64,000 nt of DNA. Source: Nitrosopumilaceae archaeon (GTDB taxonomy: Archaea > Thermoproteota > Nitrososphaeria > Nitrososphaerales > Nitrosopumilaceae). Made by a program: the position numbers and the translations under genes. The notes under the pieces were generated by a model. It was not told the origin of the DNA and searched no databases. It saw nothing but the letters and a program-made list of their open reading frames with translations. The stretch is from NCBI GenBank assembly GCA_030041535.1, contig JASHNR010000012.1, forward strand, positions 2,174 to 66,173, read 5' to 3'. This document shows, piece by piece, positions 4,808 to 64,000 of the stretch. Within the stretch, counting starts at the first letter, position 1, and every line of letters begins with the position of its first letter.

Positions 4808-4923
4808 AATAAAAAATTTGGAAAGGAGTTTTGTAGCTACTCCAATTAGATTACTGCACATTTCAAATCAAAATTTTTTTCACAAAAATTCTGAGTTTTC
4901 GTATTGCCTGTCATCTTGAATAT
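4808..4923. repeat. R-module copy R1 (conserved non-coding module, also at 44938-45050 and 45503-45614)
   Basis: aaataaaaaatttggaaaggagttttgtagctactccaattagattactgcacattt... The first ~55 nt are roughly 85 percent identical to R3 by eye. It is followed directly by motif copy C. Confidence 0.6.
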
Positions 4924-14444: not shown

Positions 14445-15308
14445 TTGAAAAGCATTAAAAAATTAGTATATGACAAGTCAAAGCCTCTTGTTTTTCCCGG
14501 CGTTTATGATGCAATTACGGCCAGAATAGCCCAAAAAGCAGGGTTTGATGCCATGTTTCAAACTGGATATGGAACTTCAGCCGCGTTGCTTGGAATGCCC
14601 GATTATGGTTTTATTGGATCTACGGAAACCATTGAAAACGCAAGACGAATTTGCAAATCTGTTTTGGTTCCAGTAATAGTTGATGCCGATACAGGTTATG
14701 GAAACCCTTTGAGTGTATGGAAAGTTGTTAACGAATTAGAAGCAGTTGGAGCCGCCGGTATTTTCCTAGAAGATCAGAAATGGCCAAAGAGATGCGGGCA
14801 CATGTCAGGAAAGGAAGTAATTGCCAAGGAGGAATATAGTGAAAAACTCAGGGCTGCAGTAGATGCTAGAAAAAGTAATGACTTCATAATAGTAGCAAGG
14901 ACCGATGCTCGCGCAACCGAGGGCTTGGATGCTGCAATTGAGCGAGGCCTTTTGTACAAGGATATCGGAGCAGATGCCATATTTGTAGAAGCCCCCAGAT
15001 CAGTTGATGAGATGAGAAAGATAGGAAAATCGATAAAGGCACCATTGGTGGCAAACATGATAGAAGGAGGAGCTACACCGCTACTTTCTTCAAGCGAGAT
15101 ACACAAGATGGGGTTCAATCTCATTCTTTATCCACTATCCGTATTGTATGCCAATACATTTGCAACGATACAAATTCTAAAAGAGTTAAGAAAGAGTGGA
15201 ACTACTGCAAAGCTAAAAGACAGGCTTGTTGATTTTGATCAGTTCAATGAAATTGTAGAATTATCGAAATTCAAGAAGATGGAAGACAGGTACGAAACAA
15301 AGTCATAG
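14445..15308 (+). CDS. isocitrate lyase/PEP mutase superfamily enzyme (methylisocitrate lyase / carboxyPEP mutase-like)
   Basis: VIVDADTGYGN and EDQKWPKRCGHMSGKEV signature. TTG start. Confidence 0.8.
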   Translation: MKSIKKLVYDKSKPLVFPGVYDAITARIAQKAGFDAMFQTGYGTSAALLGMPDYGFIGSTETIENARRICKSVLVPVIVDADTGYGNPLSVWKVVNELEAVGAAGIFLEDQKWPKRCGHMSGKEVIAKEEYSEKLRAAVDARKSNDFIIVARTDARATEGLDAAIERGLLYKDIGADAIFVEAPRSVDEMRKIGKSIKAPLVANMIEGGATPLLSSSEIHKMGFNLILYPLSVLYANTFATIQILKELRKSGTTAKLKDRLVDFDQFNEIVELSKFKKMEDRYETKS

Positions 15309-17964: not shown

Positions 17965-18888
17965 TTGTATATGAAAACTTTTGCTCACAAGTTTGTTTGG
18001 TTTGATGGCAAGTTTGTAAAGGATGATGAAGCGAAAGTTTCGATAATGACACATGCAATTCATTATGGAACTTCTGTTTTTGAGGGATTACGAGGTTATT
18101 GGAATTCAAAAAACCTTAACATTTTCAGATTGCAGGATCATATCAAAAGATTTAGGAATTCGGGAAGGGTGTACTCCATTTCACTAAGATTTACAGACAA
18201 ACAAATAGCTGATGCAATAACAGAACTCTGCAAGAAAAACAATGTAAGAGAATCATGCTACATACGACCATTTTATTTTGTAGGACGATATGGAATAAAT
18301 CTTCATGTGACAGAAAGCAGTCCAACTCACGCGGCAGTTGTGATGTTTCCCTTCGGCGATCTATTCAATAAAAATGGAATTAGTGCAGGTATTTCATCAT
18401 GGAGAAGAATTCATGACATTTCTACTCCTCCCCTTGCAAAGATGGGTGGTAATTATTTGAATTCAATATTGGCAACCCAAGAGTGTAAGAGAAATGGATA
18501 TGATGAAGCAATCCTATTAGATCATCTTGGAAACATCAGCGAAGCTCCCGGCGAGAACATATTCATTATAAGAGATAAGAAATTACTAACACCATCTTCT
18601 AGTTCTTCGGCATTAGAAGGAATTACAAAAGATTCTGTGATCAAAATAGCAAAAAACCTTGGCTACGAAACAGTAGAACGCGACATTCCAAGAACAGAGA
18701 TTTATTTTGCTGATGAAGTGTTTTTGACTGGCACCGCAGCCGAGATAACACCTATTGTTTCAGTCGATGGCAAAGGTGTTGGAGATGGCAAAGTTGGAAA
18801 AATAACACAGAAACTACAGAGAACATATTCAGAAATTACGATGGGAAGAAACAAAAGGTATTCCAGATGGATAACACCGGTGTATTAA
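17965..18888 (+). CDS. ilvE: branched-chain amino acid aminotransferase (fold type IV)
   Basis: FVWFDGKFV...HAIHYGTSVFEGLRGY, EAPGENIFII, LEGITKDSVI, FLTGTAAEITPI. Confidence 0.85.
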   Translation: MYMKTFAHKFVWFDGKFVKDDEAKVSIMTHAIHYGTSVFEGLRGYWNSKNLNIFRLQDHIKRFRNSGRVYSISLRFTDKQIADAITELCKKNNVRESCYIRPFYFVGRYGINLHVTESSPTHAAVVMFPFGDLFNKNGISAGISSWRRIHDISTPPLAKMGGNYLNSILATQECKRNGYDEAILLDHLGNISEAPGENIFIIRDKKLLTPSSSSSALEGITKDSVIKIAKNLGYETVERDIPRTEIYFADEVFLTGTAAEITPIVSVDGKGVGDGKVGKITQKLQRTYSEITMGRNKRYSRWITPVY

Positions 18889-18889
18889 A

Positions 18890-19825
18890 ATGAAAATTGT
18901 ACAAATAGGAGTGGGAGGTTTTGGCAAGAACCATACACGAATTCTTTCCCAACTTGGAGTTCTTTCAGCAATTTGTGATACAGACTTATCAAAAGCCAAA
19001 GAATTTGGAACAAAGTATTCTGTTAATCACTACTCCAGCATTGATTCCCTTTTAGGATCAGAGCAATTTGATGCTGCCTTTGTTTGTACTCCCACCTCAA
19101 CTCATTTTGAAATCGCCAAAATGTTGCTACAAAAGAAGAAAAACGTATTTGTAGAAAAACCCATGACATATCTCTCGCGTGAGGGCGATGAACTGCTAGA
19201 ATTAGCAAAGAAGAACAAGGCAATCCTAACATCAGGATACATTGAGAGATTTAACCCAGCAGTCTCGCTTGTAAAGGAATACGTCAAGACAAAAAAATAC
19301 GGAGAGTTGATAATGTTAGAATTTCATCGAGAAAATAGAATGCCACCCCACATCAAAGATGTTGGTATAATTTATGACACTTCAGTTCACGATATAGATA
19401 CGGCCATGTGGCTTTTTGATGATGTTCCAGAGGTGGTCTTTGCAAGATCTGGCAGAATAAGACACGAACATGAGGATTTTGCTACAATAATGCTAGGTTT
19501 TAGAGAAAACAAAGTAGCCATTATTTCATCAAACTGGATAACTCCAATTAAAATTAGAAGATTCAATGCTGTTTGTGGCGATGCAATAATTTCCTCTGAT
19601 TTTATCACACAAGAAGTAAAGATAGAAACCAATTCAGGGGCTGAGATTCCACGAAAAGATGTAGAAGAGCCACTTCTTTTGGAAATTAAAAATTTCATTG
19701 CTGCATCAGAGGGTAAAGAAAACATACGGGTAAGGCCAGAAGATGCACTAAATACAACAAAGATAGCTGAGGCAGCACTTTTATCTAGTCACAAAGGGAC
19801 TCCAATTTATCTAGATCTCAAATGA
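18890..19825 (+). CDS. Gfo/Idh/MocA-family NAD-dependent oxidoreductase (sugar-nucleotide dehydrogenase-like)
   Basis: N-terminal Rossmann motif IGVGGFGKNH and the EKP motif (VFVEKPM). It starts 2 nt after the ilvE stop. Confidence 0.75.
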   Translation: MKIVQIGVGGFGKNHTRILSQLGVLSAICDTDLSKAKEFGTKYSVNHYSSIDSLLGSEQFDAAFVCTPTSTHFEIAKMLLQKKKNVFVEKPMTYLSREGDELLELAKKNKAILTSGYIERFNPAVSLVKEYVKTKKYGELIMLEFHRENRMPPHIKDVGIIYDTSVHDIDTAMWLFDDVPEVVFARSGRIRHEHEDFATIMLGFRENKVAIISSNWITPIKIRRFNAVCGDAIISSDFITQEVKIETNSGAEIPRKDVEEPLLLEIKNFIAASEGKENIRVRPEDALNTTKIAEAALLSSHKGTPIYLDLK

Positions 19826-20091
19826 ACAAGAAAATGATGGAAATTCTTGCATGTCCAATAGACAAACATTTCCCACTTGATATTTTCGAGATTTTATCAA
19901 AAGAAGACATTATTTCAGAAGGCGCGATATTTTGTTCCAAGTGTTCTAGGTTTTACCCCATAATAGATGAGATTCCCATTATGCTACCAGATGAACTAAG
20001 AGACAAAAATCAAGAGATAGAATTCTTGAAAAAATACAAAGACAAACTACCAGAAAAGATTGTCAACAAGAGCTCTCCTTGGCATTTGTGA
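19822..20091 (+). CDS. Trm112/UPF0434-like zinc-ribbon protein
   Basis: LACPIDKHFPL...CSKCSRFYPIIDEIPIML. Confidence 0.65.
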   Translation: MNKKMMEILACPIDKHFPLDIFEILSKEDIISEGAIFCSKCSRFYPIIDEIPIMLPDELRDKNQEIEFLKKYKDKLPEKIVNKSSPWHL

Positions 20092-20097
20092 TAAAAA

Positions 20098-20574
20098 ATG
20101 GTTACAAATTTTGTATCAGAGAAAGCAAAGTTGGGCAAAAATGTGAAAATATGGCATTTTGCATACGTGGGTGATAACGCAGAGATTGGAGACAATGTAA
20201 AGATTGGTTCTCTTGCTCATGTGGATTACAATGTAAGGATTGGTGACAATACAATGATAGAAGGCATGGTATACATACCTCCTCTTTCCAGAATAGGAAA
20301 AAATGTTTTCATTGGACCTGCTGCGGCTCTGACAAATGACCCATATCCGGCAAGTAAGAAAATGATTGGAGTTACCATAGAAGACGGTGCTGTGATAGGC
20401 TCAAGGGCTGTCATCAAAGCTGGAGTAACAATTGGAAAAAATAGCGTTGTGGCAATGGGGGCAGTAGTTATCAAAGATGTTCCTGCAAATACAGTAGTTG
20501 CTGGAGTTCCAGCCAAAATCAAGTATTCTCGCAAAGAATACGACAAAAAGAAGAAAGATTGGGAAGACGGCTAA
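20098..20574 (+). CDS. left-handed beta-helix (hexapeptide repeat) acyl/acetyltransferase
   Basis: Repeated [IV]G-x-x-x-x-I hexapeptides throughout (IGDNVKIGSLAHV, IGDNTMIEG, IGSRAVIKAGVTIGKNSVV). Confidence 0.8.
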   Translation: MVTNFVSEKAKLGKNVKIWHFAYVGDNAEIGDNVKIGSLAHVDYNVRIGDNTMIEGMVYIPPLSRIGKNVFIGPAAALTNDPYPASKKMIGVTIEDGAVIGSRAVIKAGVTIGKNSVVAMGAVVIKDVPANTVVAGVPAKIKYSRKEYDKKKKDWEDG

Positions 20575-20801
20575 TTTCTGATTTGCTTGTGAAATATCCA
20601 ATTCTTTATCTTGGACATTATAAAGATCCAGAGCACTACAAGAAAGATAGCGATAATTGCTTTTATGCCTGAATCTAAAAATTCACTATATTTTCCAAAA
20701 CCTTGTATTGAGATATGGGCAATTGTTAAAACAAGAAGGCCTCCACCGGCTAGAATCATTAGCCACATTATGAAGACATATACAAAAATCTGCCCTTTCA
20801 T
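20571..20801 (-). CDS. small two-TM membrane protein
   Basis: 76 aa with two long hydrophobic helices. It overlaps the stop of the upstream GT4 gene by 4 nt. Confidence 0.5.
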   Translation of the reverse strand: MKGQIFVYVFIMWLMILAGGGLLVLTIAHISIQGFGKYSEFLDSGIKAIIAIFLVVLWIFIMSKIKNWIFHKQIRN

Positions 20802-21793
20802 ATCTTAATACCTGTCATAAATGCCGTGATGATTGCAAGTGCAGCTGAAAATATTGCTAGCTTGAAAATTGTAAATCCTACCTCTTTTTCTGTCATAGGT
20901 CCATTAGCTAAAATTAAACGCACCAATGTGACTGGAGCGTCTTTGTGTTCAGTAGCTTTGAGTTTGAAATCTTCTGTATGTTCTACGGGATTTGATTTTA
21001 GTTGCCTGTGCTCAACTATTCGTTTTACGCTTGACAGAAATAGAAATGAGTTTATCACTGCTGGCAACAAAGCAACTGCGGCAATTATTTCTACATGACC
21101 TACTATAGCAATTGTTCCATACATGGCACCTAAGGTGAGTGCTCCAGAATCGCCAGGAAATATTCTGCTAGGAAACTTGTGATATTTGTAAAAAGCAAGA
21201 GATACAAAACCTAGAGGCAAACTTGCTATAGCTATATCATAATGATGAACGATAAATAATGATATCGTGAGTGCAAAACTAGCAATTGTCATAAATCCAC
21301 TTGCAACACCATTTAGTACATCAATGGAATTTACCGTATTTCCTGTAATTGGAATCATGAGAACTATCAAGGCCAGATACAATTCAGGAATGTGAACAGG
21401 ACCAAATAGTGGAAAGTCCAAATGTGTACCATGTGCTCCTAACAAAATTATTGGGATTGCAGTAGCTGCTAGAGCAAGAGGTTTGAACCACCCACCCAAT
21501 ACTTTTCGGTCATCTGCCAAACCTACAAGAAATGCCAGAAAAGTGGTAAGAATTATTGCCAATACATCTACTGAAGAAAAGAACGCATAAAGAACAAGTT
21601 CTGAAACTAGGATCCCTGCAAGAATGGATGGACCTCCAGGCCTTGCTACCATTGCACCTCCAACTCTATTGTAATCTTTGACTACAAGTTTTCTTTTTTC
21701 TAGGTTTTTGATAAGAATTGGAGTAATGGCGTAAACAGTAACAAATGCTATGGCTGAAACTACTATAGCCGCTATTGTTTTATCAAACATCAT
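20798..21793 (-). CDS. glycosyltransferase family 4 polyprenol-phosphate HexNAc-1-P transferase (AglH/WecA/MraY-like)
   Basis: Polytopic membrane protein with LVGLADDRKVLG and NSIDVLNG motifs. Confidence 0.8.
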   Translation of the reverse strand: MMFDKTIAAIVVSAIAFVTVYAITPILIKNLEKRKLVVKDYNRVGGAMVARPGGPSILAGILVSELVLYAFFSSVDVLAIILTTFLAFLVGLADDRKVLGGWFKPLALAATAIPIILLGAHGTHLDFPLFGPVHIPELYLALIVLMIPITGNTVNSIDVLNGVASGFMTIASFALTISLFIVHHYDIAIASLPLGFVSLAFYKYHKFPSRIFPGDSGALTLGAMYGTIAIVGHVEIIAAVALLPAVINSFLFLSSVKRIVEHRQLKSNPVEHTEDFKLKATEHKDAPVTLVRLILANGPMTEKEVGFTIFKLAIFSAALAIITAFMTGIKI

Positions 21794-39947: not shown

Positions 39948-40622
39948 TTGACAGTGGATGATGCCATAAAGGCATTATCGCCCCAAGCGCTAAAAATGGT
40001 AAAGAACAACTATATCATAGGTCTTGGCAGCGGCAGGGCTGCAACTGCAATTGTTAGGTTATTATCATCACATCTGAAGAAAAACTATCTTTCTGTCAGA
40101 GCTATTCCAACATCGCTGCAAATCAAGATGGAGGCAGAAAGGGGAGGCATATCAATAATCGAGCCTGATCAGATTGATCATGTAGATCTAGTTTTTGACG
40201 GAGCTGATCAAATAGACACAAAAGGCAACATGATAAAGGGTGGAGGAGGTGCACTCCTTCGGGAAAAAATACTAATTAGTATGGCAAAAAAAGTTGTAAT
40301 CATAGCTGATGAATCTAAATTTGTAAAACAACTAGACCGTAGTGTACCAGTAGAGGTACACCAGTTTGCAAGAAACATGGCTACAATTCAAATTAAAAAA
40401 CATGGAGGCAGGCCACACATACGATTGTTAGAGCGTGGATATCCATATGTAACCGAAAATGGAAACATCATACTTGATTGTGAGTTTGGCACAATTTCTA
40501 ATCCCAAAGGATTGGCAGCAAAAATAATAGCAATCCCTGGTGTCATAGAGGTTGGAATATTTTCAAAACCAGACATTATTTACAAAGCAAAAGAAAACGG
40601 CAAGTTTGAGATATTACGCTGA
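39948..40622 (+). CDS. rpiA: ribose-5-phosphate isomerase A
   Basis: IGLGSGRAAT, FDGADQID, KGGGGALLREK. Confidence 0.9.
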   Translation: MTVDDAIKALSPQALKMVKNNYIIGLGSGRAATAIVRLLSSHLKKNYLSVRAIPTSLQIKMEAERGGISIIEPDQIDHVDLVFDGADQIDTKGNMIKGGGGALLREKILISMAKKVVIIADESKFVKQLDRSVPVEVHQFARNMATIQIKKHGGRPHIRLLERGYPYVTENGNIILDCEFGTISNPKGLAAKIIAIPGVIEVGIFSKPDIIYKAKENGKFEILR

Positions 40623-42008
40623 CACAGGCCTTTGGATGAATTTTCCATATCCCGGTTTTTCTATTACTTTGAAATCTTCAGCAACAACTGTTCCTCTGAC
40701 AAGAGTTTTCACGGGCCATCCCTTGAGATTCCATCCATCATATACAGTATAGTCAGAGTAGCCACTCAAGAGTTCAGGACTAACCTTCTTTTCTGCTTTC
40801 ATATCAACTAGTACAATATCAGCGTCAGAGCCCTTTTGGATTATTCCTTTCTTTGGGTACATTCCAAATATTTTTGCAGTGTTCAGGCTGGTAAGATTTG
40901 ATAACTGTTGCAGAGTTATTCTGCCTTTATTGACACCTTCACTTAGCAATATGGGCATCATTGTTCCTATCCCTGGAAATCCTGCCAAGGCATCCCAGAC
41001 GGTATCTCCTCCAAGCTTCAAGCCTAGTCGGTTTGCCACATGATCGGTGCCAATCGTGTCAACATTGTTGCTCTGCACCTCCTGCCATATTCTTGCTGTA
41101 TCGTTTACTGATCTAATTGGAGGCATTACTTTTGCAAGATATCCTTTCTGTGATTCGTATGACAAGGTCAGATAATGTGGACATGTTTCCACAAAAATTG
41201 TAGTACCATTTTTCTTTTCTCTTGAGATTGCATCCATTGCTGCCTGTGAACCAATGTGCACAAAATAGAGCCTGCATCCTGCCTTTCTTGCCATGTCAGA
41301 TGCAGTAGTTATCGATTTGACTTCAGACTCTGCCGGCCTACTTTCCGACCAAGCTCCAAGTCCATTTTTGTTGTTGTGCTTTGCCTCCCGTATACCACAG
41401 GAACACATCTGGTAATCTTCTGCATGGACAAGTACTGTGCATCCAAGCCGTGATGCGTTATAGATAACCCGTTCGACAATTTTTTCATTAACCTCTACTT
41501 TTTGCTCTACAAGCAGATTCTTGCCAGGCTTCATGTCCATGTATACATGGCCAACCTCATCTCCCAGATTCATGTACAACTTGAATGATGTGATTCCTTT
41601 TTTTGTACAAAATTCCATCTCGTCAACCTGGCTTTCCTCAAGGATTGATGCATGAATTGAATAATCTACATAGTGAGACCGCGCACTCTCGATAAGATGG
41701 GAGTCAAGATTTCTTTTGTATGACCCGCCAAGACGCAACATTCGCATCATGGTAGTGATCCCCCCAACTGCTGCGACTCGAGATTCTGTTACTGCAGCTT
41801 GCTCTATTGGTGAATAGACGCCATAATGTACGTGTGGATCAATTACACCAGGTAACGCAACTAGACCCCTACCATCAATCTTTGTATCGCATTGAGGGGT
41901 GTCATTTGTTAGACTGACAATTTTTCCCTCATCCATTACAATATTTTTATCGACTGTACCACTTGGCAGAACAACATGTGAATTCAGTATTACAGCATCA
42001 AAAGTCAT
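40614..42008 (-). CDS. cyclic amidohydrolase (dihydroorotase / hydantoinase-dihydropyrimidinase family)
   Basis: GVIDPHVHY metal-binding HxH and 464 aa. The start is set at ATG 42008 because the longer ORF runs into tRNA-Ala. Confidence 0.8.
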   Translation of the reverse strand: MTFDAVILNSHVVLPSGTVDKNIVMDEGKIVSLTNDTPQCDTKIDGRGLVALPGVIDPHVHYGVYSPIEQAAVTESRVAAVGGITTMMRMLRLGGSYKRNLDSHLIESARSHYVDYSIHASILEESQVDEMEFCTKKGITSFKLYMNLGDEVGHVYMDMKPGKNLLVEQKVEVNEKIVERVIYNASRLGCTVLVHAEDYQMCSCGIREAKHNNKNGLGAWSESRPAESEVKSITTASDMARKAGCRLYFVHIGSQAAMDAISREKKNGTTIFVETCPHYLTLSYESQKGYLAKVMPPIRSVNDTARIWQEVQSNNVDTIGTDHVANRLGLKLGGDTVWDALAGFPGIGTMMPILLSEGVNKGRITLQQLSNLTSLNTAKIFGMYPKKGIIQKGSDADIVLVDMKAEKKVSPELLSGYSDYTVYDGWNLKGWPVKTLVRGTVVAEDFKVIEKPGYGKFIQRPVSA

Positions 42009-42085
42009 CGAGAACTTTGCCAAAATCCTAGTATTATTCTTTGAGTAAAAATGAATAAAAGCAGATGCCATTCTTGATAACAAAA

Positions 42086-42158
42086 GGGCCGGTAGTCTAG
42101 TGGTAGTGATGCCTCGTTCGCAACGAGGATGTCGGGGGTTCAAATCCCCCTCGGTCCA
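42086..42158 (+). tRNA. tRNA-Ala (anticodon CGC)
   Basis: Acceptor GGGCCGG/TCGGTCC with G3:U70, anticodon stem CCTCG/CGAGG with loop TTCGCAA, T-arm GGGGG-TTCAAAT-CCCCC. Confidence 0.88.
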
Positions 42159-42307
42159 CCTCTATAGCGGTTTGGAACCCGTGGTCAAGTCTTAACATTT
42201 TTCACTTTTAATTTCATTCAAACGGCAAACAAAATTTGATGTATTTTACCAATCATTACAAGATCGTAGATCTTATTTTTATACAACTTTCTAATAGTTT
42301 TTCCAAG

Positions 42308-43675
42308 TTATTTTTTTAACTTTAAAGGGAATATCTTACCAATCGTCTTGTCGTATTTTCTTAGTGTGCGGAATACAAAACTCTGCTGAATTTCTGCTAT
42401 AAATTTTTTATAATTTTTTATTTCTGCGTCTTGCTCAGCAATAGTATTTTTATAATTTTTTATTTCTGCGTCTTGCTCAGCAATAGTATTTTTATAATTT
42501 TTTATTTCTGCGTCTTGCTCAGCAATAGTATTTTTATAATTTTTTATTTCTGCGTCTTGCTCAGCAATAGTATTTTTATAATTTTTTATTTCTGCGTCTT
42601 GCTCAGCAATAGTATTTTGGCAATCTGATAGCTTAAGAAACCTATCATGGAAAAGCGTTTTTTCTAGTGATAAATCTCCGTTCAATTCATATGGATTAAT
42701 TACATCATGGCTTTGCTCTTGTTCATTCAAACGTGAAGATATTTCTGAAATTAATGGTTGAAATCCTGCTTTTATATAATTATGAAATATATGAGAATGA
42801 ATAGAATGCAACATAACAAACTCTTTAATTTCTATCATGAACCTACAGGCAATAACTATTTTATCTTTTGAGTAGAAATTCGAAAATTCTCTCAACGCTA
42901 ATAAACAATATTTATCTTCTATATCTGCATGTAAGATTTCATAAAGATATTTGTTAGGAAGTGCATATTGAATTCTAAAAAATTTAAACCAATCTAGAAA
43001 ATACAGATGCGTTTCTTCTGCAAATTCGAAATCAATTATTTTAATCATAGAATTATTTACAATTAAATTTCTAGGTGTAAAATCGTCATTAGAAAGTCTC
43101 TTGTAAATTTTCTCATTTTTAAAATGTTTCAGCAATATTAAAATACACTCATTAATAGCTGAAAGTTCTTTGTCATTTGGACAGTATGATTTAATGAATT
43201 TATCAACTATAATCTTTATTTCTTTTTCAAATTCATCGTGAGTTGATAGTTGCTGTATCTTTTCCATTGAAGCATAAACCTTAAACAGGTTTTTCATAAC
43301 AGATTGAATTTCATTTTTAAATGGGTTATCATAAAAATATCTCTCTAGACTTTTTCCCACATATGCTTTTTCTATCATTATTTCAAAATTATTCACATGT
43401 AGAATCTCGATTGGCTCTGAAATGATATCAGCACATTTCTCATACATAGTTTTCTGGATATTGAATTCTCTTCGTATCATGTTATTGCCTAACTTGTAAA
43501 ATTTTAATAATAACTTAGGTTCATTTCCAAGTAATATCAAAAACATAATTTTTCCCTTCTCGTAAGCTCTATAGTACCCAGTACTTAGCATAACAACCGA
43601 CATCTTTTCCTTTGAGTTAAAGATGTGATTATATTTTGAATCATTTTTTAATTTATTCAGGATAGATTGAAGCAT
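42308..43675 (-). CDS. kinase-like (APH/choline-kinase/protein-kinase fold) protein with a C-terminal tandem-repeat coiled coil
   Basis: Catalytic-loop-like LSNDDFTPRNLIV and IIDFEFA (metal-binding Asp). The C-terminus is (NTIAEQDAEIKNYK)x5 followed by a basic amphipathic tail, FRTLRKYDKTIGKIFPLKLKK. Confidence 0.6.
   Translation of the reverse strand: MLQSILNKLKNDSKYNHIFNSKEKMSVVMLSTGYYRAYEKGKIMFLILLGNEPKLLLKFYKLGNNMIRREFNIQKTMYEKCADIISEPIEILHVNNFEIMIEKAYVGKSLERYFYDNPFKNEIQSVMKNLFKVYASMEKIQQLSTHDEFEKEIKIIVDKFIKSYCPNDKELSAINECILILLKHFKNEKIYKRLSNDDFTPRNLIVNNSMIKIIDFEFAEETHLYFLDWFKFFRIQYALPNKYLYEILHADIEDKYCLLALREFSNFYSKDKIVIACRFMIEIKEFVMLHSIHSHIFHNYIKAGFQPLISEISSRLNEQEQSHDVINPYELNGDLSLEKTLFHDRFLKLSDCQNTIAEQDAEIKNYKNTIAEQDAEIKNYKNTIAEQDAEIKNYKNTIAEQDAEIKNYKNTIAEQDAEIKNYKKFIAEIQQSFVFRTLRKYDKTIGKIFPLKLKK
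42410..42619. repeat. five identical tandem 42-bp units (in-frame, coding)
   Basis: The unit ataattttttatttctgcgtcttgctcagcaatagtattttt repeats at exact 42-nt spacing: 42410, 42452, 42494, 42536, 42578. Confidence 0.95.
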
Positions 43676-43680
43676 AAAAA

Positions 43681-44703
43681 TTATTTTTTAGACAGTATTG
43701 AATATGCCGGATAGAGATTTATTAATTCTTCACCGGAAAAAATTTCGTATAGATTCTTCAATTTTTCATTATATTTGCTGACATTTCCGTGTACCCAATC
43801 GTATTCATCAACAAAATCAAGATTTTTAACCACAAATGAAGGTGCATGACCACTCGACAAATCCACAATGGTGTGTAAAAATTTGTAATCTGGTAGGTCG
43901 CCAAAAAATTTTATGTCTTTAAAACCCGCTTGCATGAGCATCTCTTCATATTCCTGTTTGCTATAAGTTAAAACCTTTAATTTTTTGCCAGTTTCAGCCT
44001 CAAAAATTGATTTTGCAATTTCCTTTTTCAGATAAACATGATCTGACAGACCAGTATGATCATTCTTTTCGCCCAGCAAATACTTTAGGCCGTATTTGTT
44101 TTCTATTCCAATATAAAGAACTCCTTCTGGTTTTAATAGATTATGAGCCTCACATAATGCATCATTTAGTAGTGTTGTTGGGTCAGTATTTCTAAAAAGC
44201 TCTAACCATTCAGGTATGCTGTTAAAAATAATTAAATCAAATTGATTGTGCTCGAAAATTTTATCAGAAATATCGGCTACTACAAATTGCATATTATTTT
44301 TGTTTTCTTGTTTAGCAATTTTCTTCATGATTTGAATTTTTTCTAGATTGGCGTCAATTGTAACTACATTACAGAATCGTGACAATTGTATTGCCACTTG
44401 ACCCCATCCAGCTCCAACCTCTAAAGCCAGCATCTCTTTTTTTATATCTAATAAGAAAATAAAATCGGATCTATTTTGATTAGTTATATTCTTAAAAAGC
44501 CAAGGATTGTCCTTGGCATAGAGTTCTGCAGTAACTTCTTGCCAATTTTTTTTATCCAGTTCTTCATTGAATGACCTAAGTTGTTCTATGTCCGTGCCAG
44601 ATAATTTGCTTCCTTGTAGTTCATTAAAGTATACGTATGTAATATCGTCTATTTTTTGTAGGTTTTTTTGATTTTTAAATTTTAGGATTGAATAATTTTT
44701 CAA
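43681..44703 (-). CDS. class I SAM-dependent methyltransferase
   Basis: Motif I LEVGAGWGQVAIQL, acidic post-I residue (VVTIDAN) and ADISD. It ends 5 nt before the kinase-like gene. TTG start. Confidence 0.75.
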   Translation of the reverse strand: MKNYSILKFKNQKNLQKIDDITYVYFNELQGSKLSGTDIEQLRSFNEELDKKNWQEVTAELYAKDNPWLFKNITNQNRSDFIFLLDIKKEMLALEVGAGWGQVAIQLSRFCNVVTIDANLEKIQIMKKIAKQENKNNMQFVVADISDKIFEHNQFDLIIFNSIPEWLELFRNTDPTTLLNDALCEAHNLLKPEGVLYIGIENKYGLKYLLGEKNDHTGLSDHVYLKKEIAKSIFEAETGKKLKVLTYSKQEYEEMLMQAGFKDIKFFGDLPDYKFLHTIVDLSSGHAPSFVVKNLDFVDEYDWVHGNVSKYNEKLKNLYEIFSGEELINLYPAYSILSKK

Positions 44704-44937
44704 AATTTTACCACCAATTTTTCATATTAATATCCAATTGATTTGCAACAAAGTATTAATTGTTAACAATTTAAATCTTAAGACACGCTCTTTCAAATAA
44801 AATATCAGAATATTATTGCATGAATCATTAGACGAAAGTTGCTGTCGGATTATATACCGCCTTAATTAACAATTATTGGCAGACTGTAAGGATTTAGAAA
44901 TTTTCTGGCCGTATTTTGACGAAATCAAAAATATTCA

Positions 44938-45050
44938 ATAATAAAAAATGGAGAAGGGAATTTTGTAGCTACTTCGATAAGCTTACCGCCTATTTGTACG
45001 AAATTTCTCTAACAAAACCGCAAATCCAAATCCTCTGGGCGCAAGAAACC
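44938..45050. repeat. R-module copy R2
   Basis: aataaaaaatggagaagggaattttgtagctacttcg...aaatttctctaacaaaaccgcaaatccaaatcctctgggcgcaagaaacc. About 75-80 percent identical to R3 by eye. Confidence 0.6.
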
Positions 45051-45069
45051 CAACAAACAACATGATCAG

Positions 45070-45093
45070 CGAATGTTAATCTTACAGGATTTG
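45070..45093. repeat. half copy (D) of the T-loop-like motif (3' half only)
   Basis: cgaatgttaatcttacaggatttg compared with copy B gagaatctgaatcttacaggattt. Confidence 0.4.
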
Positions 45094-45179
45094 ATAGTTC
45101 TAATTATTTTGTAATTTTTTATAAAAATTTTTTAAATATTTTCAATTGTCCGGGATCAACGATAAATAGATCTAGAACA

Positions 45180-45413
45180 ATGTTGTGTTCATACATGGAA
45201 TTTCTAGAAGGCAATAAGCACTGGGATGTAGATGAAGTAAAAAACGACATAACCAAAAGACTAGGACCTCTACTAGATCATATCGGCAAGTTACAGCCGC
45301 CTAATCTTGAGCTCAGCGAGGTTGATGTTACCTTTGACATAGAAGGAAACATACTAGTAGTAAAGGCTGATGGCAGTGTTACCCTAAAATTCTCCAAGCC
45401 AGCAAAGAATTAA
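45180..45413 (+). CDS. hypothetical small protein
   Basis: 77-aa ORF between R2 and R3 with balanced composition. Confidence 0.4.
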   Translation: MLCSYMEFLEGNKHWDVDEVKNDITKRLGPLLDHIGKLQPPNLELSEVDVTFDIEGNILVVKADGSVTLKFSKPAKN

Positions 45414-45502
45414 CATTAAATAAAAACCCTGTCTTATTTTTTTAAATCAAGCGATATCACTAATAACACAAAATTTGACATCGACTAAATTCTTAATACT
45501 TC

Positions 45503-45614
45503 AAATAAAAAATTTGGAAAGGAGTTTGCAGCTACTCTGGTTAGTTTACTGCCCATTTTGTATGAAATTTCTCTGACAAAACGTCGAATCCAAATCCTCT
45601 AGGCTGAAGAAACC
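45503..45614. repeat. R-module copy R3
   Basis: aaataaaaaatttggaaaggagtttgcagctactctggttagtttactgcccattttgtatgaaatttctctgacaaaacgtcgaatccaaatcctctaggctgaagaaacc. It is followed directly by the 17-nt tRNA-Ala repeat. Confidence 0.6.
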
Positions 45615-45615
45615 T

Positions 45616-45632
45616 CTCGGTCCACCTCTATA
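45616..45632 (+). repeat. attR-like 17-nt duplicate of the tRNA-Ala(CGC) 3' end
   Basis: Exact match to 42150-42166. Confidence 0.65.
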
Positions 45633-61510: not shown

Positions 61511-64000
61511 CTACAAGAGTCCTACAAAATATGATAATTCATGTGATTCTGGTGTGCCTCCTTGATTTGGCCAAGCAGTTAATACGTTAGCGTATATGCT
61601 GGCAAGACCTGCCGAGGCCTGTGTAGGCACATAATATGGAATTACTACCTCCGAAGTACCAGGGTTTAGCGTGTATTGTACTGAGCCTGTTCCCAATGTA
61701 TCAAGGTTTGAATCAAGAAGGTCTATAGTTACAAGTGTTGGAACAGTATAGTTTGATGAAATATTTACCCTGACATAGCCGTTCTGGCCTCGGGTAAATG
61801 TTGAGACTGGGTTTCCATTTTGGTCAGTTGGTTGGACTGACGTTATCTGGATACCACTTGAATTGGTAGAGTTGTCCTCCAAGTTTGCAATGCATGGGTT
61901 TGTCCCATTAACAACTGTCAGATCTCCATTGCTGTCAAAACATGACTGTACATTGCTGTTTGCAAGACCATACTCTACGTTGAGATTGTTGTTTATCTGT
62001 ACGACTTGTTCACGGTTTACTGCTGCATAGCTGTCAAATGTTTGCATTGCTTGGGCCAAGCTTCCACCATTATCAAGTACGTTTTGCATAGCAGCATTTG
62101 CAGCAGCTACTCTTTGCTGCATAAAGTCAAACTCTCCCTCATAGACTCCCTGTGTACTGTTATTTGATATCGTAGAGAGGAAAGAAGAATAAGCTGCACT
62201 AGGAGTGGTGGAGGCAGTAGATTGTTGAAGCGCTGTCAGGTCTTGTTTGAGCTGGCTTGCAGCAGCTACTCTTTGCTGTTGTACCAATTCATTGTTAACT
62301 GTTGTAGCTGTTTCATTTCCAAGTATGTTTGCCACTTGTTGCTTTGAGACCTGAATCTCTTGCAAGATCTTTTGTGCCATAGGATCATTTTGGAGAGATG
62401 GACCGACAAGAGTGGTAAACTGGGTGACATTTCCAGAACTAGTTAGATTGGATGCAGCGCCTGTCGAGTTGAGTGCGGTAAGATTGAGGTTTACTAGTGC
62501 AATTGATTGGTCACCAGTATTTGCCGCAGTACCATTTTGATATGCAAGTGCCAAAAGTTGTGCTTGGGTAGGACTCATAAACGTCATGGTATCATTTTGT
62601 ATGGCAACACCCAACATAGTCTGTGCTTGAGCATTTGTCATCTCGGCTGATGCAGTAGATACTAGAGTTGTTCCAGTCAGGTTTTGCGGCTGCTGCGTAC
62701 AAGTTTGCGGAGGAGTTGGTTGATACGAAACTGGGAGTGTAGCAGGATTCTCTAGACTAGCTGAGAGGCATGATTCTGGAGTAAGAGGAGTGCCTCCATT
62801 GCTTGGCCAATTAGAATATGCGTCAGTGAATATGTCTGCTGTTCCCACTTGAGTATTTAGAGGTATGAAAAATGAGAGCGTCATCTGTGAGTTACCTGGG
62901 CTTATTGTAGAGTTAATTGATGCCGTACCTATACTGCTCTGGTTTGCGTCAAAGAGATTCAAAGTAAGAAGCGCAGGCATTGTCTCGCTAGAAGAAACTG
63001 AGACCTGGACAAAGTTGTTCTGACCTTCCTTTAACATAGAGACTGGATTGCCCTGTTGGTCAGTTAGCTGTACTGAATTTATCGATATTCCATCTGTTTT
63101 GATTACATTAAATGTTGTAGCATTGGTATAGTTTCTCCCATCAACTAGTGCTGTTGCGATATCTTGATAGACTCCTGTCTGAAAGTTTGATGGAATCTTG
63201 AATTGTAACTCACCTGTACCGTTTTCGTCTGTAGTTACTGTTCTTGATACAATGTCATTTCCCGTAGGATCTGAAACTACAATTGCAATATTCTGAAGGC
63301 TTAGGCCAGGCAATGCTACCTGCAGTGTTACAACATCACCATAAGCATAGTATGCTTGGTCGTTGGTTAGCAAGAGCGCAGGGGGTAAGATTGGAGCACC
63401 AGTATAGGCTGTTGCAGAAGACGCTGCACTGGAGTTACTTGTAGCACTTGAATTACTTGTAGCACTTGAATTTGTTATGCCTGAGATCGCAATAGTTGGC
63501 GACTCTTCTGATTCATTGCTAGCCGAGGTTTCTGTACTAGTTGTTGTAGGAGCAACTATTGTTATCGAGTCAGAACCCAAATCACCGCCACCTGATGACT
63601 CTTCTATCGGTGCCGGAGTAGATGATTCTGAGCTTGCCTGTGAAGGAGGTACATTAGTAAAGTTTGGAGAAGGAATTACACTGTTGGGTGCGGTGTAGCA
63701 TCTATTATCTGAGTGAAGATATGGATATCCGGCATAAACTCCTATACCGCATTCAGGTGCAGCGTAACATCTATTGTCTGAGTGAAGATATGGATGATTC
63801 AAGTCACACTCTAGTACATTGCCTGTCACATTACCTCTTTCTTGCGTGTTGTTAGTCTGATTGAATCTAAAGTGTGAGTAATAATAAGGCAAAGTTGATG
63901 TGATATTTCCTGAGGTGTTGTTAGTCTGATTGAATCTAAAGTGTGAGTAATAAGGCAAAGTTGATGTGACATTTCCTGATGTGTTGTTAGTCTGGGTAGG
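61511..64000 (-). CDS. very large secreted/S-layer-like glycoprotein, 5'-partial (the frame stays open to the window edge)
   Basis: More than 829 codons. It is rich in N-x-S/T sequons and has two homologous ~105-aa domains, an MG2-like domain, Ser/Thr/Asn linkers and N-terminal tandem repeats. The M at 63958 is an internal TTG. Confidence 0.7.
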   Translation of the reverse strand, partial: PTQTNNTSGNVTSTLPYYSHFRFNQTNNTSGNITSTLPYYYSHFRFNQTNNTQERGNVTGNVLECDLNHPYLHSDNRCYAAPECGIGVYAGYPYLHSDNRCYTAPNSVIPSPNFTNVPPSQASSESSTPAPIEESSGGGDLGSDSITIVAPTTTSTETSASNESEESPTIAISGITNSSATSNSSATSNSSAASSATAYTGAPILPPALLLTNDQAYYAYGDVVTLQVALPGLSLQNIAIVVSDPTGNDIVSRTVTTDENGTGELQFKIPSNFQTGVYQDIATALVDGRNYTNATTFNVIKTDGISINSVQLTDQQGNPVSMLKEGQNNFVQVSVSSSETMPALLTLNLFDANQSSIGTASINSTISPGNSQMTLSFFIPLNTQVGTADIFTDAYSNWPSNGGTPLTPESCLSASLENPATLPVSYQPTPPQTCTQQPQNLTGTTLVSTASAEMTNAQAQTMLGVAIQNDTMTFMSPTQAQLLALAYQNGTAANTGDQSIALVNLNLTALNSTGAASNLTSSGNVTQFTTLVGPSLQNDPMAQKILQEIQVSKQQVANILGNETATTVNNELVQQQRVAAASQLKQDLTALQQSTASTTPSAAYSSFLSTISNNSTQGVYEGEFDFMQQRVAAANAAMQNVLDNGGSLAQAMQTFDSYAAVNREQVVQINNNLNVEYGLANSNVQSCFDSNGDLTVVNGTNPCIANLEDNSTNSSGIQITSVQPTDQNGNPVSTFTRGQNGYVRVNISSNYTVPTLVTIDLLDSNLDTLGTGSVQYTLNPGTSEVVIPYYVPTQASAGLASIYANVLTAWPNQGGTPESHELSYFVGLL
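63848..64000. repeat. tandem 66-69 bp coding repeats (LPYY(Y)SHFRFNQTNNT...), at least 2.3 copies, continuing off-window
   Basis: gttgttagtctgattgaatctaaagtgtgagtaata... recurs at 63848 and 63917; a partial third unit begins at 63983 and runs off the window. Confidence 0.85.

What the first reader, a model, noticed from the sequence alone, without database searches (positions are those of the whole stretch)
42308..44703. Methyltransferase plus kinase-like protein with a perfect 5 x 42-bp coiled-coil repeat: a split WbdD-like glycan chain terminator/ruler on an archaeal islet?
Seen in sequence: two minus-strand genes lie 5 nt apart. The first is a class I SAM methyltransferase (LEVGAGWGQVA). 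The second has a kinase-type catalytic loop (NDDFTPRNLIV ... IIDFEFA). It is followed by (NTIAEQDAEIKNYK)x5, which is two heptads per unit, and by a short basic amphipathic tail. The five 42-bp units are identical at the nucleotide level, which implies recent expansion or ongoing slippage. Established knowledge: E. coli O9a WbdD has the same order (methyltransferase, kinase, coiled coil, C-terminal membrane/partner-binding region). It caps the growing O-polysaccharide, and the length of its coiled coil sets the chain length. Inference: this pair could be a split archaeal analogue that caps a surface glycan, with repeat copy number tuning a molecular ruler. I know of no such system described in Thaumarchaeota.
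Basis: partly seen in the sequence, partly recalled or inferred. Interest (0 to 1): 0.72.

Follow-up and report, generated by a model that had tools for sequence, protein, structure and literature searches.

The report
Split archaeal glycan chain-terminator with repeat ruler
Two adjacent genes in an ammonia-oxidising archaeon most likely encode a two-part enzyme that caps a growing cell-surface sugar chain; its stalk has been lengthened by five identical 14-residue repeats, so it is a natural test of the idea that stalk length sets sugar-chain length.

Summary
A 340-aa class I methyltransferase (MT) gene lies 5 nt upstream of a 455-aa gene. That gene encodes a kinase-fold domain, a 96-residue heptad helix containing 5.1 perfect 42-bp repeats, and a basic amphipathic tail.

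The functional interpretation holds, but the named relative changes. Neither protein is a WbdD homologue. The MT family is a full-length homologue (hhalign 99.9%, E 4e-36) of the MT module of Klebsiella pneumoniae O7 ORF6. ORF6 is a second, experimentally proven methylphosphate chain terminator. The kinase has an aminoglycoside-phosphotransferase (APH/AmiN) fold, the same structural neighbour reported for the ORF6 kinase, with its catalytic residues intact.

In 17 of 17 Nitrosopumilales-type loci the MT directly precedes the kinase gene. In 8 related loci the kinase gene (with the MT in 7 of them) sits beside glycosyltransferases, rhamnose genes and a Wzm/Wzt ABC exporter. Longer relatives fuse the kinase and coiled coil to GT2 modules.

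Repeat number varies between relatives: 1 copy at 77% identity, at least 2 at about 93%, and 5 here. About 10% of family members have their own repeats, mostly with periods that are multiples of 7.

In this genome the pair sits alone on a 3.5-kb low-GC islet bracketed by tRNA-Ala att-like repeats. Capping chemistry, ruler function and the exact copy number remain untested. I rate it a new variant of a known kind.

The parts
43681..44703 (-). Class I SAM methyltransferase, 340 aa. It is the separate-polypeptide counterpart of the MT module of ORF6(O7)-type terminators.
   Evidence: Pfam Methyltransf_31 E 4.5e-15. The family profile A5 against the ORF6(O7)-N alignment gives hhalign probability 99.93%, E 4e-36 (MT part alone) and 7e-36 over 307 columns against the full N-terminal alignment, with window MT 9-340 aligned to ORF6 3-312. 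Shared motifs are IENKxGLKYxxGxxDH and PDYK.
42725..43675 (-). Kinase domain (residues 1-317) of the 455-aa protein. It has the APH / small-molecule kinase fold with catalytic D198, N203 and Mg-binding D215.
   Evidence: AF2 model pLDDT 91.5. Foldseek against PDB: APH(4)-Ia E 4e-9 with TM 0.62-0.67; also APH(2''), APH(3'), corramycin phosphotransferase and AmiN 6sui. Profile against PDB: APH(2'')-Id E 5.7e-9. Near-invariant residues are listed.
42674..42724 (-). Flexible linker (residues 318-334) between the kinase domain and the helix.
   Evidence: This is the only internal low-confidence stretch of the model, with 10-residue block pLDDT of 53-56.
42386..42673 (-). Continuous coiled-coil-type helix (residues 335-430, about 140 A if straight).
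   Evidence: DSSP helix 335-430 with pLDDT 81-96. The heptad register is unbroken, with Ile at every 'a' position and Q/Y at 'd'.
42405..42618 (-). Perfect tandem repeat, 5.1 x 42 bp, encoding (NTIAEQDAEIKNYK)x5. Each unit is two heptads, about 21 A.
   Evidence: TRF: 100% matches, score 428. The copies are in register. There is one copy in L004/P0002 and at least two in L013.
42311..42385 (-). C-terminal basic amphipathic tail (residues 431-455) carrying the family motif S-x-x-[WF]-[KR].
   Evidence: Hydrophobic moment 0.69, charge +4. The motif is in the last 60 aa of 35/92 family members against 3.3% of background windows. In fused relatives the same motif sits between the coiled coil and the GT2 modules.
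42086..42160 (+). tRNA-Ala(CGC), the proximal boundary of the islet.
   Evidence: ARAGORN.
42150..42166 (+). att-like direct repeat, proximal copy (tRNA 3' end plus 6 nt).
   Evidence: CTCGGTCCACCTCTATA occurs exactly twice in 64 kb, with 0.00 expected from shuffles. The extended match is 19/20 (family D16).
45616..45632 (+). att-like direct repeat, distal copy, at the end of a decayed tRNA-Ala 3' half.
42161..45632 (.). Low-GC islet of about 3.5 kb. It holds the gene pair, about 480 nt of non-coding DNA, two decayed tRNA-half repeats (44940-45050 and 45504-45614) and a 77-aa ORF (45180-45413). It has no integrase.
   Evidence: GC is 25-33% inside against about 40% in the flanks. Repeats. Contigs from near-identical strains break at the repeats. 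The flanks are core AOA genes.

Best explanation
The two genes encode a split, two-polypeptide version of the coiled-coil chain terminators that ABC-transporter-dependent polysaccharide pathways use.

Proposed mechanism:
1. The kinase-fold domain phosphorylates a hydroxyl on the non-reducing terminal sugar of a lipid-linked glycan that is growing at the cytoplasmic face of the membrane.
2. The partner methyltransferase methylates that phosphate, as in K. pneumoniae O7 ORF6. This stops polymerisation and marks the chain for export.
3. The kinase is held away from the membrane and polymerase by a heptad helix whose base is an amphipathic, basic S-x-x-[WF]-[KR] tail. The length of the helix therefore sets how long a chain grows before it can reach the capping site.
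4. In-frame gain or loss of 42-bp units (14 aa, about 21 A each) changes that length without disturbing the heptad phase.

What is shown: the MT is homologous to a proven terminator MT; the kinase has an APH fold with intact catalytic residues; the helix and tail anatomy; the conserved pairing; linkage to Wzm/Wzt, GT and Rml genes in relatives; copy-number differences between relatives.

What is inferred: the acceptor sugar, the methylphosphate product, the oligomeric state, membrane or polymerase docking, and the ruler effect.

In this genome the cassette arrived on, or was stranded in, a tRNA-Ala-linked islet. It must act with a glycan pathway encoded elsewhere.
For: MT:
- hhalign probability 99.93%, E about 4e-36, covering the full length and ending exactly at ORF6's MT/kinase junction.
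- BLASTP 43-77 bits to six ORF6 orthologues, against 29 bits or less to any MT of solved structure with the single sequence.

Kinase:
- The high-confidence model matches APH(4)-Ia, APH(2''), APH(3') and AmiN.
- The profile hits APH(2'')-Id at E 5.7e-9.
- D198, N203, D215 and E217 are near-invariant.

Family architecture:
- Of 37 long relatives, 14 carry GT2, 8 carry GT1/GT4, 4 carry WsaF and 1 carries a Wzx-like flippase.
- P0061 and P0097 read APH - linker - GT2 - GT2, and P0151 has the same layout with the kinase domain detected by the family profile.
- The linkers of P0061 and P0151, which were read, end in SxSWKxTxPLR.

Context:
- The order MT, kinase-coiled coil, GT4, GT2, Wzm, Wzt, RmlC/B occurs in Nitrosopumilus sp. 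b2 and in several MAGs.

Repeats:
- Copy numbers are 1, at least 2, and 5.
- 16 of 166 family members have tandem repeats. All lie after the kinase domain, and 13 of 16 have periods that are multiples of 7.
- The five units here are identical to one another but differ from L013's unit at 3 of 42 nt, so the expansion is recent or the units are homogenised.

Helix and tail metrics.

Established knowledge: coiled-coil length sets chain length in WbdD and WbbB, as stated in PMC11231755.
Against: - There is no biochemical evidence of any kind, and the glycan of this organism is unknown.
- Within the 64-kb window there is no Wzm/Wzt, polymerising GT or rml gene, so function in this genome depends on unseen loci, or the cassette may be idle.
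- Homology of the kinase half to the ORF6 kinase is only weakly suggested. hhalign probability is 2-8%; the score is 22.3 against a shuffled null of 12.9 +/- 2.3.
- The 'd' positions of the heptads are Gln/Tyr, a weak core, and the oligomeric state is unknown.
- The short ABC ATPases (241-250 aa) in most related clusters lack the C-terminal cap-binding module that couples capping to export in E. coli O9a.
- A more distant clade has the kinase without the MT.
- The copy number of 5 rests on one assembly.
Confidence: 0.62

Rival explanations
1. The pair is a soluble small-molecule modification system. An APH / choline-kinase-type enzyme phosphorylates a metabolite or antibiotic, or ethanolamine, and the MT then methylates it (for example phosphoethanolamine to phosphocholine). 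The coiled coil would only be an oligomerisation handle.
For: The best structural and profile matches are aminoglycoside, corramycin and amicoumacin kinases and choline kinase. The best PDB sequence match of the MT is phosphoethanolamine N-methyltransferase (E 6e-6 with the single sequence, 1e-15 with the profile).
Against: The PMT match covers only the generic Rossmann core (positions 79-161). The whole MT matches the ORF6(O7) terminator MT at E 4e-36. The kinase family is fused to GT2, GT1 or WsaF modules in many long relatives and sits inside Wzm/Wzt/Rml clusters. A helix of about 100 residues plus a membrane-type amphipathic tail is not a feature of resistance or choline kinases.
Confidence: 0.08
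2. The assignment as a glycan-modifying pair is right, but the coiled coil is only a tether or oligomerisation stalk, not a ruler. The 42-bp array would be neutral replication slippage in AT-rich DNA, or partly an assembly artefact, with no effect on chain length.
For: The DNA is 25-33% GC and slippage-prone. No data on chain length exist. Only about 10% of family members show repeats. Short-read contigs break inside the array (L013), which shows that copy number is hard to assemble.
Against: The repeat periods across the family are overwhelmingly multiples of 7 and lie only in the stalk, so only phase-preserving length changes survive. In fused relatives the stalk separates the kinase from the polymerase modules, as in proven rulers (PMC11231755). 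Stalk length differs widely between orthologues.
Confidence: 0.2
3. In this genome the cassette is a stranded, functionless remnant. It would be a fragment of a glycosylation island carried in by an integrating element at tRNA-Ala and now decaying.
For: The islet is bracketed by a 17-nt perfect att-like repeat and has no integrase. It contains two decayed tRNA-half scars and has low GC. No partner glycan genes lie within 64 kb. Assemblies of near-identical strains break at the islet border.
Against: Both ORFs are intact and the same length as their orthologues. The SAM loop and all kinase catalytic residues are kept. The 5-nt coupling junction is conserved. A strain about 93% identical keeps the pair intact as far as its contig reaches, at 93.7% DNA identity. 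A perfect in-frame array with no frameshift argues against decay.
Confidence: 0.1

Closest known systems
Klebsiella pneumoniae O7 ORF6 (N-terminal methyltransferase-kinase terminator; PMC11231755)
   Same: The MT module is homologous over its full length (hhalign 99.9%, E 4e-36). The kinase that follows is an APH/AmiN-like small-molecule kinase fold that standard sequence searches do not recognise. Both have a D-x-x-P-x-N catalytic loop (FIDAVPQN in ORF6, DDFTPRN here), followed by a coiled coil. Related clusters use rhamnose genes and an ABC exporter. Some relatives of the window's kinase family carry two GT2 modules after the coiled coil, like ORF6.
   Different: Here the MT and the kinase-coiled-coil are two polypeptides, split exactly at the domain junction. 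There is no CBM and no GT modules: the protein ends at the amphipathic tail. Sequence homology of the kinase halves is not established. The host is an archaeon, not a proteobacterium or cyanobacterium. The stalk contains a perfect tandem repeat.
E. coli O9a / K. pneumoniae O3 WbdD (PMC3482155)
   Same: The order of functions is the same: methyltransferase, kinase, long coiled coil, then a C-terminal membrane or partner region. Both belong to Wzm/Wzt-dependent glycan assembly. In WbdD the coiled coil acts as a molecular ruler.
   Different: WbdD is one 708-aa chain. Its kinase is a eukaryotic (Src-like) protein-kinase fold, not APH. Neither window protein retrieves WbdD in sequence, profile or structure searches. 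This is analogy, not family membership.
Aminoglycoside / amicoumacin phosphotransferases (APH(4)-Ia, APH(2''), AmiN; Pfam PF01636)
   Same: The fold and the catalytic motifs are shared. Both phosphorylate hydroxyl groups of sugar-like substrates.
   Different: APH enzymes are soluble and free-standing, with no coiled coil, membrane tail, MT partner or glycan-cluster context. The window protein itself scores below Pfam's APH threshold.
K. pneumoniae O12 WbbB and Geobacillus S-layer glycan enzymes (WsaE/WsaF)
   Same: A terminating activity is separated from the polymerising GTs by a coiled coil (WbbB, described in PMC11231755). WsaF-type domains occur fused to this kinase family, which is compatible with S-layer glycan synthesis.
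   Different: WbbB terminates with a Kdo residue, not with a kinase and MT. No homology to the window proteins was found or tested.

Membership tests
WbdD family (E. coli O9a type terminator) | Detectable sequence or structure homology to WbdD (solved structures are in the PDB) | tested here: not met
   WbdD is absent from the phmmer hits, from the best 60 profile hits for the kinase and for the MT, and from the best 50 Foldseek hits with the pLDDT 91.5 model.
WbdD family (E. coli O9a type terminator) | Kinase domain of the eukaryotic protein-kinase (Src-like) type, fused to the MT in one chain | tested here: not met
   The fold is APH-type. The MT and kinase are separate ORFs 5 nt apart. The WbdD features are taken from PMC3482155.
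WbdD family (E. coli O9a type terminator) | Long C-terminal coiled coil followed by a membrane or polymerase-binding region | tested here: met
   Helix 335-430 with an unbroken heptad register, and an amphipathic +4 tail. Polymerase binding itself cannot be tested with these tools.
ORF6(O7)-type MT-kinase terminator (K. pneumoniae O7) | MT module homologous to ORF6 residues 1 to about 312, including the SAM loop and the post-core motifs | tested here: met
   hhalign 99.93%, E 4e-36 to 7e-36, up to 307 columns. BLASTP 43-77 bits. The sequences were reconstructed from OCR text of SI Fig. 9.
ORF6(O7)-type MT-kinase terminator (K. pneumoniae O7) | An APH/AmiN-like kinase domain directly after the MT, with a catalytic Asp in a D-x-x-P-x-N loop | tested here: inconclusive
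   The fold class and loop motif agree. Profile-profile homology is weak: probability 2-8%; score 22.3 against a null of 12.9 +/- 2.3, with 0 of 60 shuffles reaching it. The published alignment text stops at the catalytic loop.
ORF6(O7)-type MT-kinase terminator (K. pneumoniae O7) | Single polypeptide with a coiled coil and C-terminal GT2 polymerase modules | tested here: not met
   The window protein ends after the tail. The paper notes that some ORF6 orthologues also end after the coiled coil, and some relatives of the window kinase carry GT2-GT2.
ORF6(O7)-type MT-kinase terminator (K. pneumoniae O7) | Makes a methylphosphate cap on the terminal sugar | not testable with these tools
   This needs enzyme assays or NMR/MS of the glycan.
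ABC-transporter-dependent glycan assembly locus | Wzm/Wzt genes and polymerising GTs linked to the terminator | tested here: inconclusive
   The feature is met in 8 related loci (L005-L010, L020, L023). It is not met within this 64-kb window. The rest of the genome was not available.
APH / choline-kinase-like phosphotransferases (PF01636) | Bilobal kinase fold with a beta3 Lys, a catalytic Asp...Asn loop and a metal-binding Asp | tested here: met
   Foldseek E 4e-9, TM 0.62-0.67. Consensus VAK / HGDFxPxNI / IDxEF. The window protein has N in place of the Brenner His. It does not reach Pfam's own threshold, although relatives do.
tRNA-linked integrated genomic islet | tRNA gene at one end, a direct repeat of its 3' end at the other, deviant composition, and an integrase | tested here: inconclusive
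   The tRNA-Ala, the 17-nt perfect repeat (0.00 expected) and the GC dip are present. There is no integrase or any mobile-element gene, and no PHROG hit.

The most novel reading that the evidence does not exclude
The 42-bp array is a heritable 'rheostat'. In-frame slippage adds or removes two-heptad units of about 21 A from a molecular ruler. Populations of ammonia-oxidising archaea would then vary the chain length of a capped surface glycan from strain to strain, for example to escape viruses or to tune the cell envelope. The two-gene terminator would also be a portable cassette, able to move via tRNA-linked islets and plug into resident ABC-transporter glycan pathways. This would be the first terminator-ruler system in Archaea and the first natural allelic series of ruler lengths.
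Probability: 0.25. Interest if true: 0.8.

Novelty: new variant of a known kind. Interest (0 to 1): 0.6.

Why it matters
Coiled-coil terminators that both cap a polysaccharide and measure its length have so far been described only in bacteria, mainly for O-antigens. PMC11231755 calls the strategy widespread 'across the bacterial kingdom'.

Marine ammonia-oxidising archaea carry large, strain-variable glycosylation islands whose specific functions are stated to be unknown (bioRxiv 10.1101/2024.04.23.590705). This finding assigns a concrete, testable role to a conserved gene pair in those islands. It extends the ORF6(O7)-type methylphosphate terminator to Archaea in a split form. It also defines a sparse kinase family (343 cluster representatives at E <= 1e-3 among 1.84 billion) that Pfam did not detect in the window protein or most of its close relatives.

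The family supplies natural length variants of the stalk: 1, at least 2 and 5 units here, and independent 7-, 14-, 21- and 28-residue repeats elsewhere. Those variants could test the ruler model without any engineering.

A phosphate-bearing cap on AOA surface glycans would also bear on phosphorus budgets and virus-host recognition in a globally abundant group.

Tried and rejected
- Single-sequence Pfam, NCBIfam and PDB searches of the kinase-like protein returned only coiled-coil noise. A 6-sequence profile against PDB also failed.
- The first AF2 model, built from a 6-sequence alignment, was poor (pLDDT 56.7). Its Foldseek hits pointed to APH but with TM below 0.3. It was superseded by the 83-sequence model.
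- An exact look-up of the window's own kinase protein found no indexed contig, so I could not read beyond the window.
- The genome-contig scan used very strict peptide patterns and returned a single locus, a Nitrosomirales MAG.
- A metagenome scan for the unit-to-unit junction of the repeat found nothing, so there are no population data on copy number.
- Rfam found nothing credible in the islet's non-coding DNA; the best hit was ToxI at 24 bits against a threshold of 50.
- PHROGs gave no viral signal for the 77-aa ORF.
- I tried to show homology of the kinase half to the ORF6(O7) kinase using OCR-derived sequences. The result is weak and inconclusive.
- My crude coiled-coil scorer did not flag the window helix, because Gln/Tyr sit at the 'd' positions. 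The register analysis and the AF2 model are the basis for calling it a heptad helix.
- I rejected the phosphocholine-pathway reading and the antibiotic-resistance reading (see the rival explanations).
Full report
OBSERVATION

The window has two minus-strand ORFs, 43681-44703 (340 aa) and 42308-43675 (455 aa). They are separated by 5 nt.

Tandem Repeats Finder reports a single array at 42405-42618: period 42, 5.1 copies, 100% matches and no indels. It encodes (NTIAEQDAEIKNYK)x5 at residues 354-423. A decayed sixth unit follows the array.

The first ORF passes Pfam's thresholds for several class I methyltransferase models (Methyltransf_31, E 4.5e-15). The second ORF gives only coiled-coil noise in Pfam, NCBIfam and PDB sequence searches. 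So the 'kinase-like' reading needed testing.

The observation itself is confirmed.

THE KINASE-LIKE DOMAIN

A word-indexed search of 5.8 billion proteins found only six relatives. A profile of the domain, scored against 1.84 billion cluster representatives, found 343 at E <= 1e-3 and 13 at E <= 1e-30. The family is real but sparse.

An 83-member alignment has the consensus VAK / HGDFxPxNI / IDxEF. D198, N203, D215 and E217 are invariant or nearly so, and all are present in the window protein.

That profile hits APH(2'')-Id at E 5.7e-9. Next come the ACAD11 kinase domain, corramycin phosphotransferase, protein kinases and choline kinases.

With the same alignment, AlphaFold2 gives a confident model (mean pLDDT 91.5, pTM 0.73). 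It has a globular domain at 1-317, a short floppy linker, one helix at 335-430, a kink, and a helix at 433-448.

Foldseek against the PDB returns these matches:
- APH(4)-Ia: E 4e-9, TM 0.62-0.67 normalised to the target
- APH(2'') and APH(3')
- Corramycin phosphotransferase
- Amicoumacin kinase AmiN (6sui, E 4e-7)

WbdD, whose structures are in the PDB, appears in none of the displayed lists. According to PMC3482155, WbdD's kinase is a Src-like eukaryotic protein-kinase fold. The window protein is therefore a kinase with the APH (small-molecule / sugar-hydroxyl kinase) fold. It is not a WbdD homologue.

THE STALK AND THE TAIL

In one heptad register Ile fills every 'a' position across all five units without a break. 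The 'd' positions alternate Gln and Tyr. The 7-residue periodicity dominates the hydrophobicity spectrum.

The last 25 residues contain SFVFRTLRKYDKTIGKIF, with a helical hydrophobic moment of 0.69 and net charge +4.

Across the family, S-x-x-[WF]-[KR] followed by a basic amphipathic stretch occurs in the last 60 residues of 35 of 92 members. It occurs in only 3.3% of control windows. In long relatives the same motif (TSFSWKVTSPLRFLRR, SSTSWKWTKPLR) closes the coiled coil just before the glycosyltransferase modules. The motif therefore marks the polymerase- or membrane-proximal base of the stalk.

WHAT THE FAMILY DOES ELSEWHERE

Of 37 long relatives, 14 carry GT2 domains, 8 carry GT1/GT4, 4 carry WsaF-type rhamnosyltransferase domains, and one carries a Wzx-type flippase. 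P0061 and P0097 read APH-like kinase, a linker of about 500 residues, then GT2-GT2. P0151 has the same layout, with its kinase domain detected by the family profile. The linkers of P0061 and P0151, which I read, end in the motif.

The methyltransferase family has 53 relatives, which their sources name as Nitrosopumilaceae or Thaumarchaeota.

In Nitrosopumilus sp. b2 and several MAGs the gene order is: MT, then (overlapping) a Pfam-less protein of 428-476 aa, then GT4, a 595-aa GT2, ABC2_membrane, ABC_tran, RmlC and RmlB. Further GTs, FkbM- and DUF4214-type methyltransferases and a PMT_2 (GT-C) protein lie upstream.

The Pfam-less proteins are homologues of the window kinase (phmmer E 1e-53 to 8e-70) and have the same layout.

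With eight additional metagenomic loci, the MT directly precedes the kinase gene in all 17 Nitrosopumilales-type loci that include the upstream DNA. Wzm/Wzt genes are in the cluster in eight loci. A more distant clade (L012, L021, L023) has the kinase without the MT, but still among rhamnose, GT and ABC genes.

THE CHARACTERISED RELATIVE

I reconstructed six ORF6-N orthologue sequences from the OCR text of the paper's SI Fig. 9.
- The window MT aligns to them at 43-77 bits.
- The 43-member MT family profile aligns to the MT part of the ORF6-N alignment with hhalign probability 99.93% and E 4e-36. Against the full N-terminal alignment it gives E 7e-36 over 307 columns, with window MT 9-340 aligned to ORF6 3-312.
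- The alignment includes the motifs IENxxGLKYxxGxxEDH and PDYKLP.
- It ends exactly where ORF6's kinase begins.

By contrast, MTs of solved structure match only the generic Rossmann core, and WbdD is not in the top 60.

The kinase halves show only weak, colinear similarity. hhalign probability is 2-8%. The score is 22.3 against a column-shuffled null of 12.9 +/- 2.3, and 0 of 60 shuffles reach it. The text alignment stops at the catalytic loop (FIDAVPQNIIL in ORF6, NDDFTPRNLIV here). I rate homology of the kinase halves as inconclusive.

THE REPEAT AS A LENGTH VARIABLE

P0002 is 77% identical and was read through on a k141 contig. It is exactly 56 aa (4 x 14) shorter, with one unit before the same tail.

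L013 comes from a strain about 93% identical. It has the same gene pair and the same 5-nt gap. Its contig ends one unit plus 11 nt into the array, so it has at least two copies. Its unit differs from the window's at 3 of 42 nt.

The window's five units are identical to each other yet differ from L013's unit. So the array either expanded after the strains split or is being homogenised.

Across 166 family proteins, 16 have recognisable tandem repeats. All lie downstream of the kinase domain. The periods are 14 (eight proteins), 28 (three), 25 (two), and 21, 7 and 11 (one each). Orthologues carry unrelated repeat units: YIEKIIREKNE x3 in Nitrosopumilus sp. b2, and HDELRDEVSKLRTx about 3.4 times in L006.

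Stalk extension that preserves the heptad phase is therefore a recurrent, independent event in this family. A 42-bp unit is in frame, so slippage changes length (about 21 A per unit) and never the reading frame.

GENOMIC SETTING

tRNA-Ala(CGC) ends at 42160. The 17 nt CTCGGTCCACCTCTATA that span its 3' end recur exactly at 45616-45632, with 0.00 occurrences expected by chance.

Between the two copies GC falls to 25-33%, against about 40% outside.

The distal repeat is the end of a decayed tRNA-Ala 3' half. A second, more decayed copy lies 564 nt upstream. Together they bracket a 77-aa ORF.

Contigs from 99-100% identical strains end exactly at these repeats.

No integrase or phage-like gene is present.

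The flanks are core thaumarchaeal genes: MCM, Hel308, aIF5B, HisRS, SDH, 4-hydroxybutyryl-CoA dehydratase and ADP-forming CoA ligases. tblastn with the cluster proteins of the relatives finds no Wzm/Wzt, polymerising GT or rml gene in the 64 kb.

The pair is therefore a detached two-gene cassette on what looks like a tandem integration scar.

MECHANISM AND RIVALS

The best-supported reading is a split ORF6(O7)-type terminator:
- The kinase phosphorylates the non-reducing terminal sugar of a lipid-linked glycan.
- The MT methylates the phosphate.
- The stalk, anchored by its amphipathic base near the membrane or polymerase, sets the chain length at which capping occurs.

Shown: MT homology, kinase fold and catalytic residues, stalk and tail anatomy, conserved pairing, cluster context in relatives, and copy-number differences.

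Inferred: substrate, product, oligomeric state, docking and the ruler effect.

The rivals are:
- A soluble small-molecule kinase/MT pathway. This is disfavoured by the full-length MT match, the GT fusions and the cluster context.
- A stalk that tethers but does not measure, with neutral slippage. This cannot be excluded.
- A stranded, idle remnant in this genome. This is disfavoured by the intact ORFs and motifs, and by conservation in a sister strain.

NOVELTY

Searches of the held literature found no description of a coiled-coil terminator or ruler in Archaea. AOA glycosylation islands are described as being of unknown specific function.

This is a new variant of a known kind, for four reasons. 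It occurs in Archaea. It is split at the MT/kinase junction. It has a naturally repeat-extended stalk. Here it sits on a tRNA-linked islet.

I score interest at 0.6. The kind of system is known and horizontal transfer of glycan genes is unsurprising. But the natural allelic series of stalk lengths makes the ruler model directly testable, and it gives function to conserved genes in AOA surface-glycan islands.

Noticed in passing
window 42086-42166 and 45613-45632: tRNA-Ala(CGC) abuts the islet. The 17-nt tRNA 3'-end sequence CTCGGTCCACCTCTATA recurs exactly 3.47 kb away (0.00 expected by chance). The two copies bracket the low-GC segment that holds the gene pair. No integrase is present.
   Followed up: yes
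window 44940-45050, 45504-45614 (and weakly 4793-4887): A repeat of about 110 nt occurs in two copies, with a 58-nt core at 86% identity. The copies look like decayed tRNA-Ala 3' halves (T-arm, a 16-nt insert, then the acceptor end). Contigs from 99-100% identical strains terminate exactly at these copies. A third, diverged copy may exist near 4.8 kb. Rfam finds nothing.
   Followed up: partly
window 40614-42143 (-): The mechanically listed TTG start of the amidohydrolase (hydantoinase/dihydroorotase-like) ORF overlaps the tRNA-Ala gene. The real start is probably the downstream Met (MTFDAVILN...).
   Followed up: no
L001 2220-4187, L002 8028-9995, L018 2579-4402: In one clade the MT partner is 608-655 aa long. 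It has an N-terminal extension of about 320 aa of unknown function, and its SAM glycine loop is lost (VVDADLGQ instead of LEVGAGWGQ). It may be a catalytically dead MT kept as a scaffold.
   Followed up: no
P0003-P0005; L001, L002, L005, L006, L018 neighbours: In some orthologues the amphipathic tail is replaced by a DUF4214 domain. DUF4214 also decorates neighbouring GT2, MT and polyketide-cyclase-like proteins in the same clusters. This suggests that DUF4214 is a docking module that assembles the complex, an alternative to the tail.
   Followed up: no
L012 10001-11083, L021 8001-9104, L023 8001-9083: A more distant clade of the kinase (361-368 aa, about 31-34% identity; one locus is from a Nitrosomirales MAG) lacks the MT partner. 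It follows an NTP-transferase gene within rhamnose/GT/ABC clusters. It may add a phosphate-only cap.
   Followed up: partly
L010 5847-7619: One related cluster has a 590-aa ABC ATPase with a TPR-rich C-terminal extension, next to a sulfotransferase, YfhO and GtrA genes. The other clusters have short ATPases of 241-250 aa. The extension could be a cap-recognition module analogous to the Wzt C-terminal domain.
   Followed up: no
L003 1400-2737: An Orc1/Cdc6 gene lies directly upstream of the MT-kinase pair in L003. That is another non-glycan context for the cassette and hints that it is mobile.
   Followed up: no
window 8908-10077 (-): A TnpB / Cas12f-like protein (PF07282, E 1e-18), which is a marker of IS200/IS605-type elements.
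   Followed up: no
window 61511-63958 (-): An 815-aa protein has sub-threshold hits to the Wzt C-terminal carbohydrate-binding domain (28.6 bits against a 30.4 cut-off) and to MG2. It may be a large surface or glycan-binding protein.
   Followed up: no
window 17965-21793: A small set of sugar-modifying genes lies about 21 kb from the islet: a class IV aminotransferase, a GFO/IDH/MocA oxidoreductase, a hexapeptide acyltransferase, and an AglH-type Glycos_transf_4 (polyprenyl-phosphate HexNAc-1-P transferase).
   Followed up: partly
window 14445-15308 (+): A protein of the PEP-mutase / isocitrate-lyase superfamily (PF13714, E 1.9e-47) sits next to succinate dehydrogenase. I did not examine whether it relates to phosphonate synthesis.
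   Followed up: no
P0001 (window 42308-43675): The database's precomputed annotation lists a Pfam accession, PF28256.1, for this protein. That accession is not in the Pfam copy available here, so I could not see what it covers.
   Followed up: no
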